Below are positions 4,408 to 27,614 of a stretch of 64,000 bases of DNA, in pieces. The first letter of the stretch is position 1, and each line of letters begins with the position of its first letter. The DNA is from a virus. The notes beneath the pieces are model-generated. The model was not told the DNA's origin. It saw nothing but the letters and a program-made list of their open reading frames with translations, and searched no databases. Both the position numbers and the translations under genes were made by a program. The DNA lies in the IMG/VR virus record IMGVR_UViG_3300028364_000033, positions 1 to 64,000 of that record; one strand, written 5' to 3'.

Positions 4408-5538
4408 TTATAATATTTTATAAAGTTTTTTATTGTCGTAATTAAACATAAATTCACTAACTGATTCAACCTTTTTATCCTTAAGGGAGAAAAATAATCC
4501 ACTAAACTCAGCAACACCCATTTTCTTTGAAATCTCGAAAACTTTCATTGCAAATTTCTTTTGTTCTTGTTTAGTTATATTCTTTGGTAAAGATGTTTTA
4601 ATTTCTTCCCAAGTCGAATTTAAGTCACTAATCAATTTATCATAATTAGCCTTTAGCTTTTTAATTTCTTCAAGTCTTTCTGGAAATGTTGCCCCGAACT
4701 CATCTATCTCATTGGTTTTAACAACCCCAAGTATGTTGTGCTCACCAGTTTTTGATTTTAAATGGTGAACTGCCAGGTAAGCTGGGTTTTTAATTTTAAT
4801 CCTATTATGGTAGCCATCAACTACAACATAACCCTCATCGGTCCATGGCATACCCTCTAGGGTCCTAATTAAGGCACCACTATCAGTAACGTTTAAATCA
4901 TATGATTTAACCACTGGTAATCCAATCAAATGACCCAATTGAATCAACTCATCATATGATATTTCTTGTAAGGTTTTAACATTTCTGACAGTTAATAGAG
5001 TAATTGAAGATATAGCGTGTGGTTTCACAACTATATTATAAGGTGTTGTTAATTCGAAAACAAAGTTATAATCTTTATTTAATGTATTTAAATCAAAGTT
5101 ATACTTAGTTTCCATAATATCCATGAACAGTGAGTGAAAAGTCGAACCTAACTTGTTATTAACTTCACCTTCTCCTTGTATCATACCACTTGTGGCAGCA
5201 AACCATTTATTATTATATGAATATAATGTTATTAAGGAGCCGTCCAACTTCTCCAATATATGCGCAGTAGACCAATCTATTTTGGCAGCATAACCCTCAG
5301 CACTGTTGAAGAATTTAAAAAAGGGTAAACATAAAACCCTTAATGTTTTTTTCTCTAATATAAGACCCCTACATTCTTGTACTTCTGGAATCCCCATATT
5401 AGATTCGATTTGGTTATATTTTAATAATATTCGCTCACCATCGTCTTTACATATTAATTTAAAATCAGATATTGCTTTATCTAACCCATATTTTCTAATA
5501 TATTTTACTATTTTTAACATAATTTTTTTATTTAACAC
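4408..5538 (-). CDS. rnlA: RNA ligase 1 (T4 RnlA-like, Rnl1 family)
   Basis: Lysine nucleotidyltransferase motif I ILEKLDGSL (T4 Rnl1 ILTKEDGSL), ECRGLILE (T4 ECRGIMFE), KFFN, EGYVVV and RIKIKNPAY (T4 EGYVAV, HFKIKSDWY); similar length (376 vs 374 aa). Confidence 0.85.
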   Translation of the reverse strand: MLNKKIMLKIVKYIRKYGLDKAISDFKLICKDDGERILLKYNQIESNMGIPEVQECRGLILEKKTLRVLCLPFFKFFNSAEGYAAKIDWSTAHILEKLDGSLITLYSYNNKWFAATSGMIQGEGEVNNKLGSTFHSLFMDIMETKYNFDLNTLNKDYNFVFELTTPYNIVVKPHAISSITLLTVRNVKTLQEISYDELIQLGHLIGLPVVKSYDLNVTDSGALIRTLEGMPWTDEGYVVVDGYHNRIKIKNPAYLAVHHLKSKTGEHNILGVVKTNEIDEFGATFPERLEEIKKLKANYDKLISDLNSTWEEIKTSLPKNITKQEQKKFAMKVFEISKKMGVAEFSGLFFSLKDKKVESVSEFMFNYDNKKLYKIL

Positions 5539-5593
5539 AAAGATAATGAAAAAAATGGAAACTACCTAAATAATTTCCATTTTTTATTAATAA

Positions 5594-5833
5594 TTAATTT
5601 GGTAGAATTAGTGGTGTCCAATGGGTTATTTTATTACCCATAACCCTTTCACCATCATAATCGAAATACCACTCTGGTTCTTCACCATCTTCATAGTAAA
5701 GTTTTAGTGTTACGGATTCACACCAGTATTCGGAACCATTTCTAAAAAATGCTATAACTTTTTGACTACTTTTAAAATCACCATCTTCAATATCCATTGC
5801 TGGTAATTTATCTAACACACTTACCCAATTCAT
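5594..5833 (-). CDS. hypothetical protein
   Basis: ORF track. Confidence 0.35.
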   Translation of the reverse strand: MNWVSVLDKLPAMDIEDGDFKSSQKVIAFFRNGSEYWCESVTLKLYYEDGEEPEWYFDYDGERVMGNKITHWTPLILPN

Positions 5834-5838
5834 AATTG

Positions 5839-6222
5839 TTATTTTAATTTATCACCCAAATTAGTACCTAAATCATCATTATTTTCATCATCATCATCAT
5901 CATCATCATTATCTTCTTCCGACATTTTTTCATCAATCTTATTTTTAAGTTGATTTAATAGTTCGCTTAATTCACCCTCATCCTTTGGAGCTAGGTGACT
6001 AAATGACATCTGGGCATCTAATATTTTTTTAGCGGAGAACATACCACATATTTCACCAAATAACATTACATCGTCTTTGTCGTGAATTAAACCACTAATT
6101 AGTATCATGAAATCACCAATACTATTTATAATGTAATCACCACTAACTTGACCCTCTTCATGTAGACCAAAACCCATTTTGAATATCTTATCACTTAACT
6201 CTTCGTGTCTTTTATTTTCCAT
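5839..6222 (-). CDS. hypothetical acidic protein with poly-Asp tract
   Basis: C-terminal EEDNDDDDDDDENNDD low-complexity acidic tail. Confidence 0.4.
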   Translation of the reverse strand: MENKRHEELSDKIFKMGFGLHEEGQVSGDYIINSIGDFMILISGLIHDKDDVMLFGEICGMFSAKKILDAQMSFSHLAPKDEGELSELLNQLKNKIDEKMSEEDNDDDDDDDENNDDLGTNLGDKLK

Positions 6223-7023
6223 CTATTTAAATATTTGCTCTGTTATTATTCCACTTAAAACTATGTAATTTTCAAGTACTTTGTACTCTGTAATATCATT
6301 TGACATTACTGGCTTACCACCAGCATTTACATTTACCGCAATGGTTATATGTGCAATTTTGTTATCCGTATGATAACCCTGAACGTGAACAGCTAAAGCC
6401 ATATCACTTGAACCAACGGCAACGGCCTTGATGTTCTTGGTGGAACCTAAGTCACCACGCAAGTTATCAGGCAAACCCTTACCAAAGTTAATGGTCATGT
6501 GGTGTGCGAAAACTTTCCAACCCTCTGGTATCAAGTGCCCAACGGCACCCAACAACTTTGATTTAGACTTATCATCCAATACCAATGAGGCAAACTTTGT
6601 TTTTCTATTTCTATCCTTACTTTCCATAACTTTTTTTATTGTTAATTCACCAACACCACCGTGTGATGCTATCATACCGTTAATTGTTTCTAAACCCACG
6701 TTGTGAGTATTTCTAGCAGCTAGACCTTCAGCTAACAACCCACCAGTACCAACATCCTCAAATCTAATGTTTTTATCGGCAAACCCCATTTCTAGAGCAG
6801 CTTTAACATATTTCTTTGGTTCGTTAGCCTTAATGTTCGTATTATCGATTACGCATGGGGTTATACCTTCTAACATAGATTTCTTAGCATTAAGGAAGTT
6901 CTTGTGGTGCATTTTACCATGCTCGGACCAATCTCCAGATTCAACCATTCTTTTGAAATAGGCATTGTAGTCACCAGTAACCTCAATAAGGTCATCAGTG
7001 GAGTGTATAATACCCTCGCCCAC
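6223..7023 (-). CDS. polynucleotide-kinase-like domain fused to 2H phosphoesterase (LigT/CPDase-like); P-loop lies upstream of an in-frame TAA (see findings)
   Basis: two HxTx motifs (HHMTINFG, AHITIAVN) typical of 2H phosphoesterases; VIDNTN kinase-family motif; GVPGSGKST-type P-loop is encoded immediately upstream (7042-7077) but interrupted by TAA; track ORF begins at a GTG. Confidence 0.6.
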   Translation of the reverse strand: MGEGIIHSTDDLIEVTGDYNAYFKRMVESGDWSEHGKMHHKNFLNAKKSMLEGITPCVIDNTNIKANEPKKYVKAALEMGFADKNIRFEDVGTGGLLAEGLAARNTHNVGLETINGMIASHGGVGELTIKKVMESKDRNRKTKFASLVLDDKSKSKLLGAVGHLIPEGWKVFAHHMTINFGKGLPDNLRGDLGSTKNIKAVAVGSSDMALAVHVQGYHTDNKIAHITIAVNVNAGGKPVMSNDITEYKVLENYIVLSGIITEQIFK

Positions 7024-7184
7024 TAATTCTTTAGCTCTAGTTGATTTCCCACTACCTGGTTACGGTACCCCTCTCATGATAATCAATATCTGAGAGGGGC
7101 GAGTGATTTTAATATTTAAACTATTATGTGAGATATCCTCACGTAAAATTTTTCTTATATTATTTTTCATATTTTTTTATAAAT

Positions 7185-7964
7185 TTATTTTTTTAATCGT
7201 TTCCATAATGGGGTTTTCTCACCATTATGTTGTCTATGGATTTCTCTCATTCTTCTAACACACATAAGCACATAAGTTTTAGAATTAAATCCATAAGAAC
7301 CAATGGCCCACATGTCATTAACCTCAACCAAACAAGTCTTACCTTCCTTAGTTATGCCCACATCCAATGTGTAAGCACAATTTGCTGATTCATAATCCTT
7401 TATCATATTCTCGATAACACTAACATCTGGAAATAATTTAAAATCCCCTGTGTAGTGTTGAATACCTTTCAATTCACCCTCATGAACGAAACATCTATGT
7501 TCTGAAACAAATTCTAGTATTTCACTACAATATAATGGTGTATCATCCTCAACATTATAATAATCCCTCAAGAAATCAAAACCTAAGTTGTTTTCAATTA
7601 CACAACCAGTAAATAATTTAACACCTTCACTAGGTTTAATGAATATTGGGAACTTACCCTTTGATACCACATGCTCAAATGTTGTTTCTATAATCTCCCT
7701 ACCTAAGTATTCACTTAATTCCATTGGATACCCTAGATACTTTGGTGTTTTTACACCACAAGCTTTAAAAAACTCGGTACTGGCCTGTACAGAACCTATT
7801 ACGATATCATCACTTAAGTTTAATACTCTATTGGTTAATGTATTCTCCATATCATCACCATCGAATGGTATAATTGTAAATCCCATCTGTTTTAATGGTT
7901 CAACTGACATATAAACAAAGTCATCCAACCACTCTCCACCTATTTTTTCTAAATATGCTTTCAT
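7185..7964 (-). CDS. ATP-grasp fold protein
   Basis: FPIFIKPSEG (ATP-grasp K-loop like PVVVKP), CLVEVND (Mg/ATP-binding E-x-N), overall RimK/Ddl-like layout. Confidence 0.5.
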   Translation of the reverse strand: MKAYLEKIGGEWLDDFVYMSVEPLKQMGFTIIPFDGDDMENTLTNRVLNLSDDIVIGSVQASTEFFKACGVKTPKYLGYPMELSEYLGREIIETTFEHVVSKGKFPIFIKPSEGVKLFTGCVIENNLGFDFLRDYYNVEDDTPLYCSEILEFVSEHRCFVHEGELKGIQHYTGDFKLFPDVSVIENMIKDYESANCAYTLDVGITKEGKTCLVEVNDMWAIGSYGFNSKTYVLMCVRRMREIHRQHNGEKTPLWKRLKK

Positions 7965-7967
7965 ATC

Positions 7968-8324
7968 TTACATTAATTTAGCACCATAAATATAAGCGTT
8001 TGGATTTACTTGTAAACCAAATTCTTCATGTTCACCAACCATAATCATAACTTCACTGGTGACACCTTTTATAACACTTGGCTCAAGGTTAACTATGAAT
8101 GGACATTGAATACCTATAAGAGATTCTGGTTCACTTGTTTTACCTAAATTAGTGAAAGCTGTTTTTGTTACCTCTTCACCATCTAAATCACCAAATTGAA
8201 CTGTTAATTTAATCCCATAACTTTTAGGTATACACTCAGCACCTATAATTAATCCAACTCTAATATCTAATTGTTTTGAAATTTCTAAAAATTTATCAAA
8301 ACTTATTTTTTCTTTAATTTCCAT
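7968..8324 (-). CDS. tRNA-binding domain protein (Trbp111/CsaA/EMAP-II-like OB fold)
   Basis: LDIRVGLIIGAECIPKSYGIKLTVQFGDLDGEE matches the tRNA-binding domain signature L-D-hRVG-I-E-E-HP-ADKL-V-VD-G. Confidence 0.6.
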   Translation of the reverse strand: MEIKEKISFDKFLEISKQLDIRVGLIIGAECIPKSYGIKLTVQFGDLDGEEVTKTAFTNLGKTSEPESLIGIQCPFIVNLEPSVIKGVTSEVMIMVGEHEEFGLQVNPNAYIYGAKLM

Positions 8325-8326
8325 AA

Positions 8327-8728
8327 TTATTCGTTTCCAAAAAGGTTAATATTTACTCCCATACTCTCCAATGATTCAAAAACCATTAAATTCCATTTAC
8401 CAAAGGAACCTAAATATAGGTCCTGATAAATACACCACTTAACAACATGAGGCTCATCGGTTGATATTTCACCACTCCAATCCTTTATGAGGTAAGTGTA
8501 CCCCATATAACCATCTCGATGCATACTGAAAACTTGTATGGCTGTTGACATGTCTACGTCTAACCCAGTTTCCTCTTTAACTTCCCTTATAATGGCGGAT
8601 TCCAATGATTCATCATCATCATCCACTTTTCCACCTGGAAGTCCCATATCATTATGGTCTTTTTTTCTGGAAACACCTAATACGTGACCAGTTTTATTTA
8701 ATAGTACAGCTTGAACAGTATATTTCAT
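8327..8728 (-). CDS. Nudix hydrolase
   Basis: Nudix box GLPGGKVDDDDESLESAIIREVKEETGL (Gx5Ex7REUxEExGU). Confidence 0.75.
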   Translation of the reverse strand: MKYTVQAVLLNKTGHVLGVSRKKDHNDMGLPGGKVDDDDESLESAIIREVKEETGLDVDMSTAIQVFSMHRDGYMGYTYLIKDWSGEISTDEPHVVKWCIYQDLYLGSFGKWNLMVFESLESMGVNINLFGNE

Positions 8729-9123
8729 TAGTATAATCTTAAACGTTTAGTTAATTTATCTATTTCGACCGATTTATTAGGTCCTATTGCAGCACACGTT
8801 ATCGTTGGGGTACCATTGAATTCCGTTCTACCCTTATCTATTATTACGTGAGCCTCAAGTCCAGCTTCTTTCGCTTTTTTAACTAAATTTAATAACTTAT
8901 CTTCACTATCTATTTTCAGACAAACTTTAGTATGACCTGTTTTTAACCAGTTAAGGGCATCATCGGACATATTCACATTATTTTTGTGTTTTCCCTGTGC
9001 CATGATTTGTTTTAATATAAATGACATGGAAACATGACTGACCTGGGCCGCAAGTTTACCGATACTCATGTCCAAATCTTTTCTAATTATTATAACTTGT
9101 TTAACTTCTGACATAATTTTCAT
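8728..9123 (-). CDS. peptidyl-tRNA hydrolase, PTH2 family
   Basis: KQVIIIRKDLDMSIGKLAAQVSHVS matches PTH2 core ([24 protein letters not shown]). Confidence 0.7.
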   Translation of the reverse strand: MKIMSEVKQVIIIRKDLDMSIGKLAAQVSHVSMSFILKQIMAQGKHKNNVNMSDDALNWLKTGHTKVCLKIDSEDKLLNLVKKAKEAGLEAHVIIDKGRTEFNGTPTITCAAIGPNKSVEIDKLTKRLRLY

Positions 9124-27225: not shown

Positions 27226-27235
27226 AAAAGTGGAC

Positions 27236-27330
27236 GTTATGGGAGTCGAACCCATGTCTTACAAACTCTTCAAAAGATTTCTAGAAGTTTAGGTCATAAT
27301 TTATCAAACTATCCGAAATTCTTCCTTACT
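27236..27330 (-). tRNA. tRNA-like element with canonical T-arm (ATGGG-TTCGACT-CCCAT); acceptor not resolved, possibly interrupted or degenerate
   Basis: T-loop signature and a family promoter 285 nt upstream; cloverleaf not completed by eye. Confidence 0.3.
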
Positions 27331-27614
27331 TTTATAGTGGTTTTGGTCCCACTCATAGATTACCATGATTAATAGATTACTATTATTTGGTGATTTATCA
27401 CCATCAACATTAAATTAGGCTAATGCTACCTCTCCCATACCAACACCCAAGGTGGCGGTATCTAGGAAATTTTTGTCAATGTCAAACTCGTTGCCATTTA
27501 AAAAGTGTTTGATAGTGATTTTAGGAGCTTCCAATCTAACTCCACTTCCTTACTAATTACGAATATCCATAATCAATTCCGTAAAACGCCCAATTGTTTT
27601 AATAAATATATACA

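What the first reader, a model, noticed from the sequence alone, without database searches (positions are those of the whole stretch)
6223..7100. Kinase/2H-phosphoesterase (Trl1-like healing enzyme) gene whose P-loop carries an in-frame TAA from an apparent 6-nt insertion; the start codon is buried in a hairpin
Upstream of the track ORF, in frame, the minus strand reads ATG AGA GGG GTA CCG TAA CCA GGT AGT GGG AAA TCA ACT ..., i.e. M R G V P * P G S G K S T R A K E L V G E G... Deleting the 6 nt TAACCA gives GVPGSGKST, a textbook polynucleotide-kinase P-loop (T4 Pnk GCPGSGKST). Downstream are a kinase-family VIDNTN motif and two HxTx motifs (HHMTINFG, AHITIAVN) of the 2H phosphoesterase/LigT/CPDase superfamily. 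This kinase plus CPDase pairing resembles the healing domains of fungal/plant tRNA ligase Trl1, not T4 Pnk (kinase plus HAD phosphatase). The ATG sits in the 3' arm of a 9-bp hairpin (CCCCTCTCA...TGAGAGGGG, 7066-7099). Either the kinase is freshly inactivated, or expression needs stop-codon readthrough or reinitiation at the downstream GTG, which would give a CPDase-only protein.
Basis: seen in the sequence. Interest (0 to 1): 0.8.

Follow-up and report, generated by a model that had tools for sequence, protein, structure and literature searches.

The report
Conserved stop-codon hop in phage RNA-repair kinases
A phage RNA-repair kinase gene carries a stop codon inside its ATP-binding loop, kept across dozens of diverged phages with a matching RNA hairpin, so ribosomes most likely hop six bases over it; that would be the first natural "stop-hop".

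Summary
The in-frame TAA (7062..7060, minus strand) inside the Walker A motif is real. Identical DNA occurs in at least six independent assemblies. It starts at ATG 7170, and 36 sense codons, including the beta1 strand ILIIMRGVP, precede the stop. Intact orthologues read RG[IV]P-GSGK, so the window has exactly six extra bases.

The same arrangement recurs in 54 distinct sequences from uncultured phages, in two main polynucleotide-kinase families plus a few other kinases. It consists of a Pro codon, any of the three stops, a YYN codon, then GGN. A 10-19 bp hairpin always ends within three bases of the Pro codon. The hairpin covaries, is far stronger than synonymous recoding allows, and is absent from 43 uninterrupted relatives. 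No relative has a sense codon at the stop position, and all downstream ORFs are intact.

Best explanation (about 0.65): a programmed +6 translational hop. Peptidyl-tRNA-Pro leaves CCG while TAA sits in the A site, re-pairs on CCA, and the product has the canonical GVPGSGKST loop. The hairpin, refolding behind the ribosome, drives the forward movement.

Readthrough, an off allele and RNA-level excision are less likely rivals. No natural stop-hop was found in the searchable literature. The kinase plus 2H-CPDase assignment is supported.

The parts
6223..7170 (-). Complete kinase-CPDase (RNA 'healing' enzyme) gene. ORF1 is 36 codons, followed by TAA and then 278 codons, all in one frame. The terminal stop is TAG at 6225..6223.
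   Evidence: Translation. Orthologues start at the equivalent ATG and are uninterrupted.
7168..7170 (-). True start codon ATG.
   Evidence: It is in frame, 12 bases after the stop of the upstream R2K gene, and aligns with the orthologues' MKxxIRxILRE start.
7075..7077 (-). It is an internal Met32 of the beta1 strand and part of the 3' arm of the hairpin.
7067..7100 (-). 5' stimulatory hairpin GCCCCUCUCAGAUA-UUGAU-UAUC(A)UGAGAGGGGU. Its 3' arm is formed by codons Met-Arg-Gly-(Val) and ends 1 base before the take-off codon.
   Evidence: MFE -23.9 kcal/mol, z = -4.8. Synonymous resampling gives z = -5.0. It is conserved with covariation in 54 sites and absent from intact orthologues.
7063..7065 (-). 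Take-off codon CCG (Pro36), the rarest Pro codon in the window.
   Evidence: The take-off codon is CCN in every hit of scans that left this codon free.
7060..7062 (-). In-frame stop TAA, in the A site at take-off and followed by C.
   Evidence: The position is always a stop (TAA 32, TGA 16, TAG 6) and never a sense codon.
7057..7059 (-). Landing codon CCA, proposed to be re-paired by the peptidyl-tRNA-Pro and not translated.
   Evidence: Landing codons are CCN 34, CUN 18, UCA 1 and ACA 1 of 54.
7039..7056 (-). Resume codon GGT and the rest of Walker A (G-S-G-K-S-T).
   Evidence: The sequence matches GSGKST of intact orthologues.
6664..7086 (-). Polynucleotide 5'-kinase domain (AAA_33 / T4 Pnk-like), interrupted by the 6-base gap.
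   Evidence: Pfam, PDB profile search, fold search.
6226..6603 (-). 2H phosphoesterase (CPDase) domain with HxT motifs at 6504..6490 and 6351..6337.
   Evidence: Weak Pfam tRNA_lig_CPD hit. Fold matches to Trl1 kinase-CPD 6u05 and CNPase. Motif coordinates.
4408..5538 (-). Rnl1-type RNA ligase, the sealing partner of the healing enzyme.
   Evidence: Pfam RNA_lig_T4_1 at 9e-13 and PHROG 562 at 7e-46.

Best explanation
The gene is a functional RNA-repair enzyme (5'-kinase plus 2',3'-cyclic phosphodiesterase) whose mRNA is decoded by a programmed, in-frame +6 translational hop, a natural 'stop-hop'.

Proposed steps:
1. Ribosomes start at AUG 7170 and translate 36 codons.
2. They arrive with peptidyl-tRNA-Pro on CCG in the P site and UAA in the A site.
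3. Release is slow, because Pro is the last residue and C follows the stop.
4. A stable hairpin that ends at the E-site codon has been melted by the ribosome. As it re-zips on the exiting mRNA it pulls the mRNA forward. In most members its G-rich 3' arm could also pair with the anti-Shine-Dalgarno sequence, as in prfB.
5. The Pro anticodon lets go of CCG, the mRNA slides six bases, and the anticodon re-pairs on CCA. In relatives the landing codon is CCN, CUN or UCA, all able to pair with the GG of the anticodon by Watson-Crick or G.U pairs.
6. Decoding resumes at GGU.

Nine bases thus specify one proline, and the product carries the canonical Walker A GVPGSGKST. Ribosomes that terminate instead make only a 36-residue peptide, so the hop sets, and may regulate, the amount of kinase made.

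Shown here: the sequence architecture, its conservation, the hairpin covariation, and the gene identity.
Inferred: the hop itself, the role of the hairpin, and any regulatory purpose.
For: 1. The site is real and old.
- Identical DNA occurs in at least six independent assemblies.
- The same interruption occurs in relatives of 55-88% identity, with ORFs of 277-289 codons intact after it and an in-frame ATG 20-37 codons before it.

2. The site is recurrent.
- There are 54 unique sites: 13 in the kinase-CPDase family and 41 in shorter kinases, mostly one ~140-aa AAA_33 family with a few others.
- They come from IMG/VR, JGI metagenomes and Logan assemblies.
- None was found in one genome for each of 185,579 bacterial and archaeal species.

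3. A stop is required, but any stop will do.
- Counts are TAA 32, TGA 16, TAG 6.
- With NNN allowed at that position, the scan returned the same 28 stop-containing loci plus one unrelated GC-rich hit.
- In 28 of 51 genes the internal stop is the same codon that ends that gene, so the genetic code is not reassigned.

4. The take-off codon is always CCN, even when left free in the scans. This matches the near-invariant Pro of GxPGSGK in uninterrupted relatives.

5. The landing codon is YYN in 53 of 54 sites (CCN, CUN, UCA). That is a nucleotide rule: these codons can pair with the GG of the Pro anticodon. The corresponding amino acids (Pro, Leu, Ser, Thr) form no sensible set, and none of about 43 intact relatives examined has Leu at that position.

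6. The hairpin is tightly linked to the interruption.
- Its 3' end lies within -3..+2 of take-off base 1 in 54 of 54 sites. Mean size is 14.6 bp and mean MFE is -22.5 kcal/mol.
- Resampling synonymous codons on the same peptide gives a mean of -8.3 (z = -2.8 to -5.8; 0-1 of 200 resamples reach the observed value).
- The same region in uninterrupted orthologues averages -5.7 (n=10) and -3.9 (n=33).
- Wobble positions in the 3' arm covary with their partners. Val/Ile third base: C:G 11, A:U 11, U:A 3, G:C 2. Arg third base: C:G 16, U:A 15.
- Entirely different arm sequences occur: GAUGCC/GGCAUC and GGAUCCCGCGAA/UUCGCGGGAUCC.
- Interrupted short kinases carry an extra ~10-codon N-terminal extension that supplies the 5' arm.
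- Synonymous sites are more conserved in the 60-base cassette (75-100% identical codons) than in the next 240 bases (about 50%).

7. The termination context is unlike real gene ends in the window. None of 61 genes ends in Pro, and only 4 of 61 stops are followed by C.

8. There are experimental precedents.
- Synthetic stop-hops have matched codons flanking a stop (PMC5009743).
- Gene 60 has a 5' stem-loop that drives forward movement as mRNA exits the ribosome (10.1101/2024.12.09.627546).
- An upstream hairpin juxtaposed to the E site stimulates forward shifting at CUU-UGA in 70S ribosomes and mimics the prfB Shine-Dalgarno duplex (PMC6321510).
Against: - No protein, ribosome-profiling or reporter data exist. 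The junction peptide has not been seen.
- The hosts are unknown and no cultured phage with the site was found.
[quoted passage not shown] High efficiency here would depend on untested stimulators.
- A third of the landing codons are only near-cognate (CUN), so strict re-pairing is not universal.
[quoted passage not shown] A 6-base slide allows only partial refolding, so the force argument is qualitative.
- One relative (L108) has a 7-base gap that changes frame.
- Many of the 54 sequences are phylogenetically related, and the scans fixed parts of the motif. Only the positions left free (stop type, landing codon, hairpin) count as independent evidence.
- A readthrough product with the loop P-X-[P/L]-GSGKS cannot be excluded from sequence alone.
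Confidence: 0.65

Rival explanations
1. Programmed stop-codon readthrough. A near-cognate or suppressor tRNA decodes the stop, giving a protein two residues longer with a non-canonical loop RGVP-X-[P/L/S/T]-GSGKST. The hairpin and the stop-C context weaken termination.
For: - The stop is always followed by C or, rarely, T/A in a weak context, and is preceded by Pro.
- The PGSGKST part of the loop stays intact in 34 of 54 sites.
- The first Walker A position tolerates non-Gly residues in some NTPases (own knowledge).
Against: - UAA, the stop least prone to readthrough, is the commonest (32 of 54), and all three stops occur.
- No suppressor tRNA is seen in the window.
- No relative has a sense codon at that position, although under this model it would be neutral or better.
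- The residue after the stop would be Leu in a third of cases, and none of about 43 intact relatives examined has Leu there.
- The upstream part ends exactly with the canonical G-[VI]-P in every case, which this model does not explain.
- Known readthrough stimulators lie 3' of the stop, not 5' (own knowledge).
Confidence: 0.15
2. The stop really terminates translation. The interrupted allele is a conserved 'off' or low-expression form, or the product is only a truncated protein reinitiated downstream (for example at GTG 7023) that acts as a CPDase alone. The hairpin would serve some other RNA-level role.
For: - Gene callers predict the 266-aa ORF.
- Interrupted and intact alleles are interleaved in the tree, which could reflect repeated switching.
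Against: - The 20-37 codons before the stop stay open, in frame and homologous to the beta1 strand in all 54 sites.
- The P-loop codons after the stop and before any possible restart codon are also conserved.
- The ~140-aa kinases have no second domain to salvage.
- A dead kinase would not keep a 117-146 codon ORF open in AT-rich DNA across this divergence.
Confidence: 0.08
3. The six bases are removed from the mRNA itself. For example, a nuclease that recognises the hairpin or loop cuts the RNA, and the phage's own healing and sealing enzymes rejoin it, as in HAC1/XBP1-type splicing.
For: - The genes sit in RNA-repair modules with an RNA ligase nearby.
- The hairpin is conserved.
Against: - No such 6-base excision is known.
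- The enzyme would be needed to make itself.
- Two precise cuts three to six bases from a helix end have no recognisable second structural element. The small 3' helix does not covary.
- The need for a stop codon and for a Pro codon are translational features that splicing does not explain.
Confidence: 0.04
4. Sequencing or assembly error, or a recent inactivating mutation in this one genome.
For: None beyond the prior expectation for an in-frame stop in a metagenomic sequence.
Against: - Identical sequence occurs in at least six independent assemblies.
- The feature is conserved in 54 diverged sequences in two main families plus a few other kinases.
Confidence: 0.01

Closest known systems
Synthetic 'stop-hops' in E. 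coli (Weiss et al. 1987, cited as B54 in PMC5009743)
   Same: Matched or synonymous codons flank an in-frame stop. Peptidyl-tRNA re-pairs six bases downstream, so nine bases encode one amino acid and the frame is unchanged.
   Different: Those were artificial constructs, worked at low level and had no stimulators. The 2016 review states that no natural occurrence is known. Here the site is natural, conserved, and comes with a covarying 5' hairpin.
Phage T4 gene 60 translational bypass
   Same: Shared features are a take-off codon followed by a stop, retention of peptidyl-tRNA, landing on a matching codon, and a 5' stem-loop that refolds on exiting mRNA and promotes forward movement. Both occur in phage genes and both may be spread as cassettes (10.1101/2022.08.31.505936; 10.1101/2024.12.09.627546).
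   Different: Gene 60 skips 50 bases rather than 6, uses Gly GGA rather than Pro CCN, and depends on a long nascent-peptide signal and an A-site stem-loop. Its 5' stem-loop is 9 bases from take-off rather than 0-3. No homing-endonuclease gene adjoins the window gene.
prfB (RF2) programmed +1 frameshift
   Same: A stop followed by C sits in the A site. A duplex-forming G-rich element lies three bases 5' of the P-site codon: AGG GGG UAU CUU UGA C in prfB, AGG GGG GUG CCU UGA C in many short kinases. P-site re-pairing tolerates G.U pairs.
   Different: The shift here is +6 and in frame, not +1, because CCN cannot re-pair in the +1 frame. All three stops are used. The G-run is absent from some members (L190, L194), which keep only the hairpin. 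No link to release-factor autoregulation is evident.
Upstream refolding hairpins as stimulators of forward frameshifting (PMC3639245, PMC6321510)
   Same: A stable hairpin juxtaposed to the E site promotes 3'-ward slippage when the A site holds an unread stop. This was shown in 70S ribosomes.
   Different: Those were engineered or SARS-CoV-derived hairpins tested on +1 and -1 sites, not natural bacterial or phage stimulators of a hop.
Streptomyces phage Hau3 terminase 10-base inserts (PMC10732093)
   Same: A short natural bypass candidate in a phage gene, with a slow-to-decode codon in the A site. Bypassing was confirmed by mass spectrometry in E. coli after UUA was changed to UAA.
   Different: The gap is 10 bases and changes frame. 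It depends on a rare UUA rather than a stop, occurs in few genomes, and has no conserved juxtaposed 5' hairpin.
Healing enzymes of RNA repair: fungal/plant Trl1 kinase-CPD, T4 Pnkp
   Same: A P-loop polynucleotide 5'-kinase is joined to a 2H cyclic phosphodiesterase, the Trl1 arrangement, and a separate Rnl1-type ligase lies nearby, as in T4.
   Different: There is no fused ligase domain, unlike Trl1. The end-healing domain is a 2H CPDase rather than the HAD phosphatase of T4 Pnkp. Activities are untested.

Membership tests
Programmed translational bypassing / stop-hop | The take-off codon is immediately followed by a stop or slow-to-decode codon. | tested here: met
   The window has CCG TAA. 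All 54 sites have CCN followed by a stop.
Programmed translational bypassing / stop-hop | A landing codon cognate to the same peptidyl-tRNA, with coding resuming at the next codon and restoring the protein. | tested here: met
   In the window CCG goes to CCA and decoding resumes at GGT, giving GVPGSGKST, identical to intact orthologues. Across the set the landing codon is CCN in 34, near-cognate CUN/UCA in 19, and ACA in 1.
Programmed translational bypassing / stop-hop | Conserved stimulatory signals (mRNA structure and/or nascent peptide). | tested here: met
   A 5' hairpin is present in 54 of 54 sites, covaries, and is absent from intact relatives. A nascent-peptide signal was not evaluated.
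Programmed translational bypassing / stop-hop | A single polypeptide lacking the residues encoded by the gap is actually made. | not testable with these tools
   This needs mass spectrometry of the junction peptide or a reporter assay.
prfB-type +1 frameshift site | The P-site tRNA can re-pair in the +1 frame and the ORF continues in +1. | tested here: not met
   CCG-U gives CGU in the +1 frame, and the downstream ORF is in the zero frame.
Stop-codon readthrough site | The extended product, with an amino acid at the stop, is the conserved functional form. | tested here: inconclusive
   No sense-codon variants exist and the following residue would be P, L, S or T. Both argue against readthrough, but no product data exist.
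Alternative genetic code / stop reassignment | The stop codon type is used as sense throughout and not as a terminator. | tested here: not met
   There is only one such site in 64 kb. TAA ends 55 of 61 window genes. The internal stop type equals the gene's terminal stop type in 28 of 51 genes.
Polynucleotide 5'-kinase (T4 Pnk / AAA_33 P-loop kinase) | Walker A GxxGxGK[ST] after beta1, plus the kinase fold. | tested here: met
   This holds only after the 6-base skip. Support: Pfam AAA_33 at 2.5e-10; T4 Pnk 1ly1 at 3.4e-5; Foldseek hits to T4, mammalian and Clostridium thermocellum kinases. The model was built on a 75%-identical orthologue, not the window protein itself.
2H phosphoesterase (CPDase / LigT / Trl1-CPD) | Two HxT/S motifs in a 2H fold. 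| tested here: met
   HHMT and HIT motifs are present. The Pfam tRNA_lig_CPD hit is weak, 0.0034, below the family cut-off. Fold matches: 6u05 kinase-CPD and mouse CNPase.
Trl1-type tRNA ligase | Ligase, kinase and CPD domains fused in one polypeptide. | tested here: not met
   The ligase is a separate Rnl1-type gene at 4408..5538.

The most novel reading that the evidence does not exclude
The stop-hop is a sensor as well as a way round an insertion. Its efficiency depends on competition between release factors and hairpin refolding, and refolding needs the 5' arm to be free of a trailing ribosome. Full-length RNA-repair kinase would then rise when translation is damaged, for example when host anticodon nucleases deplete tRNAs and ribosome loading or termination slows. 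That would couple synthesis of the repair enzyme to the damage it repairs. The cassette would also be a portable recoding module that has moved between at least two kinase families.
Probability: 0.2. Interest if true: 0.95.

Novelty: new variant of a known kind. Interest (0 to 1): 0.88.

Why it matters
- Translational bypassing has rested for decades on one well-studied natural case (T4 gene 60 and its homologues), on yeast mitochondrial inserts, and on a few candidates.
- Short in-frame 'stop-hops' were made in the laboratory in 1987. The field's main review (2016) states that no natural occurrence is known.
- This finding offers a compact natural system of about 45 bases with dozens of sequence variants. 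These include compensatory hairpin changes, all three stops, and cognate versus near-cognate landing codons.
- With it, open questions become directly testable: how peptidyl-tRNA leaves and re-pairs, and how mRNA refolding at the ribosome exit drives movement.
- In-frame stops in otherwise conserved phage genes should not be annotated automatically as pseudogenes or split genes. Every gene caller truncated this one.
- The finding also adds a Trl1-like kinase-CPDase healing enzyme to the phage RNA-repair repertoire.

Tried and rejected
- **Start at ATG 7077 or GTG 7023.** Rejected: the frame is open to ATG 7170, and orthologues align from there.
- **Sequencing error.** Rejected by independent assemblies.
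- **Recent pseudogene.** Rejected by conservation and intact ORFs.
- **Stop reassignment or suppressor tRNA.** Rejected. All three stops occur and the same codons terminate the same genes. No suppressor was found among the window's tRNAs. Four tRNAs with 6-base anticodon loops remain unexplained.
- **Shine-Dalgarno-like G-run as the universal stimulator.** Downgraded. L190 and L194 keep a hairpin without a G-run, and the window's genes show no SD use.
- **RNAalifold on a plain MAFFT alignment.** It gave only a 4-bp consensus, because the 5' arm sits in different registers in different families. I replaced it with per-sequence folds, a position-by-position pair table and synonymous-codon controls.
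- **Searches that found nothing.** blastn of the region and of a short-kinase cassette against cultured phages; Rfam on the hairpin region; the exact window cassette in IMG/VR; other split ORFs with matched flanking codons in the window, which are only ordinary gene junctions.
- **Literature searches.** Searches for a described natural stop-hop, or for an interrupted phage polynucleotide kinase, found none.
Full report
**1. The observation**

On the minus strand the sequence reads ATG AGA GGG GTA CCG TAA CCA GGT AGT GGG AAA TCA ACT. The TAA is at 7062..7060, in frame with the 266-aa ORF 6223..7023.

It is open back to ATG 7170..7168, just after the stop of the preceding gene. It reads MKNNIRKILREDISHNSLNIKITRPSQILIIMRGVP*PGSGKST....

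Eleven IMG/VR relatives (53-64% identity, on phage contigs up to 362 kb) and 313-aa database homologues start at the equivalent Met. They read ...QELIVMRG[IA]P-GSGKST with no interruption. So three points follow:
- ATG 7077 is an internal Met of the beta1 strand.
- The window carries exactly two extra codons.

**2. Not an error and not a recent lesion**

The truncated 266-aa product (P0001) is encoded on at least ten contigs. The five shown come from five samples. An 88%-identical relative from a sixth sample has the same site base for base.

A 69%-identical relative (L022) has a diverged N-terminus but keeps CGC CCC TCT CAG ... ATG AGA GGG GTT CCA TAA CCA GGT.

**3. A recurrent, conserved architecture**

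I scanned public collections with degenerate patterns for a P-loop containing an extra 'stop + codon'.
- IMG/VR gave 28 loci and JGI metagenomes 28. All real kinase hits carried a stop; the three that did not were unrelated chance matches.
- One genome for each of 185,579 bacterial and archaeal species gave only one chance TGG match.
- Leaving the stop position free (NNN) added only one unrelated GC-rich hit.
- Leaving the take-off codon free added one chance hit.
- Leaving the landing codon free nearly doubled the set to 54 loci.
- Leaving both free returned only loci already seen.

Pooled, there are 54 distinct 120-base sites:

| Feature | Counts |
|---|---|
| Stop | TAA 32, TGA 16, TAG 6 |
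| Take-off codon | CCT 25, CCG 24, CCA 5 (never CCC) |
| Landing codon | CCN 34, CUN 18, UCA 1, ACA 1 |

Thirteen sites are in the kinase-CPDase family. Forty-one are in shorter kinases, mostly one ~140-aa AAA_33 family, plus a few other P-loop kinases (L178, L190, L194).

Every complete gene has an ATG 20-37 codons upstream in frame and an intact ORF downstream (117-146 or 274-289 codons). In 28 of 51 genes the internal stop is the same codon that ends that gene. The window has no second site of this kind.

**4. The hairpin**
- All 54 sites fold into a 10-19 bp hairpin whose 3' end lies within -3..+2 of the first base of the take-off codon. Mean MFE is -22.5 kcal/mol.
- Resampling synonymous codons while keeping the peptide gives a mean of -8.3. 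For the 33 sites tested, z ranged from -2.8 to -5.8, and 0-1 of 200 resamples reached the observed value.
- The homologous 51 bases of uninterrupted orthologues average -5.7 (n=10) and -3.9 (n=33).
- Wobble positions of the 3' arm covary with their partners. Arg third base: C:G 16, U:A 15. Val/Ile first base: C:G 28, U:A 3. Val/Ile third base: C:G 11, A:U 11, U:A 3, G:C 2.
- Unrelated arm sequences occur: CCCCUCUCA/UGAGAGGGG, GCACUCCCC/GGGGAGUGC, GGAUCCCGCGAA/UUCGCGGGAUCC and GAUGCC/GGCAUC.
- In the short-kinase family, uninterrupted genes start MEK[IVM]LY.VRG.PGSGK. Interrupted genes have about 10 extra N-terminal codons that provide the 5' arm.
- Synonymous codons are 75-100% identical in the cassette, against about 50% in the next 240 bases.
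- In a tree of the region after the P-loop, interrupted and intact alleles are interleaved. This implies repeated gain and loss, or transfer of the cassette.
- Rfam has no matching family.

**5. Mechanism**

The architecture is that of a 'stop-hop': a P-site codon, a stop in the A site, and a codon six bases on that the same tRNA can pair with. The product is then GVPGSGKST, identical to all intact relatives.

Several features favour this over readthrough:
- Any stop serves, and UAA is the commonest.
- There is never a sense codon at the stop position.
- The take-off codon is always Pro, matching the conserved Pro of GxPGSGK.
- The landing codon obeys a nucleotide rule (YYN, able to pair with the GG of the Pro anticodon by Watson-Crick or G.U pairs, as in the CUU-to-UUU re-pairing of prfB). 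It obeys no amino-acid rule: Pro, Leu, Ser and Thr all occur, and none of about 43 intact relatives examined has Leu there.
- CTA-G additionally creates TAG in the +1 frame.

The termination context is unlike real gene ends in this genome. None of 61 genes ends in Pro and only 4 of 61 stops are followed by C. Pro before a stop is known to slow release (own knowledge: Hayes, Bose and Sauer 2002).

The hairpin abuts the E-site codon. Experiments with 70S ribosomes show that such an upstream refolding hairpin stimulates forward slippage at CUU-UGA and mimics the prfB SD:anti-SD duplex (PMC6321510, PMC3639245). In gene 60, a 5' stem-loop forming on exiting mRNA drives forward movement (10.1101/2024.12.09.627546).

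Many members also have AGG GGG three bases before the P-site codon, as in prfB. Two members lack the G-run, and the window's genes show no Shine-Dalgarno use. The hairpin is therefore the common denominator.

The hop, its efficiency and any regulatory role are inferred, not shown.

**6. Gene identity**
- The repaired protein matches Pfam AAA_33 at 2.5e-10 and, weakly, the fungal tRNA-ligase CPD domain.
- A family profile finds T4 Pnk (1ly1, 3.4e-5).
- An AF2 model of a 75%-identical intact orthologue (pLDDT 89.6) matches Candida Trl1 kinase-CPD (6u05) across both domains. It also matches T4, mammalian and Clostridium thermocellum polynucleotide kinases, and mouse CNPase.
- An Rnl1-type ligase lies at 4408..5538. 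The neighbours are PTH2, NUDIX, a tRNA-binding domain protein and an R2K ATP-grasp protein.
- Homologues of the short kinase sit next to rnlA in hundreds of cultured phages, but none of those checked carries the cassette.

**7. Comparison with the literature**

The 2016 review of recoding states that stop-hops are known from synthetic constructs and that 'no occurences are known' in nature (PMC5009743). Full-text searches for later reports found none.

The nearest natural cases are gene 60 and its homologues (50 bases; 10.1101/2022.08.31.505936) and the 10-base UUA inserts of Streptomyces phage Hau3 (PMC10732093).

I classify this as a new variant of a known kind, namely programmed translational bypassing.

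**8. Caveats**
- The evidence is entirely comparative.
- The sequences are not phylogenetically independent, and the scans fixed part of the motif.
- Hosts are unknown.
- One relative (L108) has a 7-base gap.
- The geometry allows only partial hairpin refolding after a 6-base slide.
- Readthrough cannot be excluded without a junction peptide.

Noticed in passing
window 27228-27591 (-): A genuine tmRNA gene in a phage-like window (Rfam RF00023, 58 bits, E = 4e-20; ARAGORN tag peptide GNEFDIDKNFLDTATLGVGMGEVALA). It may be relevant because Pro-stop stalls are classic tmRNA substrates.
   Followed up: partly
window 9946-14689 (-): A cluster of 12-13 tRNA genes. ARAGORN gives four of them 6-base anticodon loops with two-base 'anticodons' (10430-10503, 10572-10663, 13001-13080, 14535-14605), yet all pass the Rfam tRNA threshold. 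No tRNA-Pro and no suppressor tRNA was seen.
   Followed up: partly
window 4408-9123 (-): A run of translation and RNA-repair genes: Rnl1 ligase, DUF551, kinase-CPDase, R2K ATP-grasp, tRNA-binding domain protein, NUDIX, and PTH2 peptidyl-tRNA hydrolase.
   Followed up: partly
window, whole: Almost no Shine-Dalgarno motifs lie upstream of 61 long ORFs. TAA ends 55 of 61 genes. GC content is about 30%, and nearly all genes are on the minus strand. This suggests a host that does not rely on SD, for example Bacteroidota.
   Followed up: partly
L108 (IMGVR_UViG_3300023179_000402), about 1960-1990: A short-kinase relative with the hairpin and CCT TGA, but followed by GTTA GGA TCA GGA AAA. This is a 7-base gap that changes frame. 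It could be a decayed copy, an error, or a frame-changing bypass.
   Followed up: no
L091 3423-4646: The interrupted short kinase is followed by a metallophosphoesterase-like ORF (GDxxxG...GNHDHH motifs) and, on the opposite strand, a GIY-YIG-like ORF. Both assignments are by eye only.
   Followed up: no
L028-L055, about 25 bases upstream of the start codons: Interrupted short-kinase genes share a nearly invariant upstream sequence, AATACCTCTAATAATAAATATATG. This suggests a conserved promoter or leader that travels with the cassette.
   Followed up: no
L194 (IMGVR_UViG_3300031760_000153), 10880-10962: In this distinct kinase the start codon lies inside the 5' arm of the hairpin (AAG AUG CCA ... 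GGC AUC CCU UAA CUG), only 11 codons before the stop.
   Followed up: no
family tree of kinase-CPDase genes (L001-L079): Interrupted and intact alleles are interleaved. The 60-base cassette is far more similar between lineages than the rest of the gene, which hints at horizontal movement of the cassette.
   Followed up: partly
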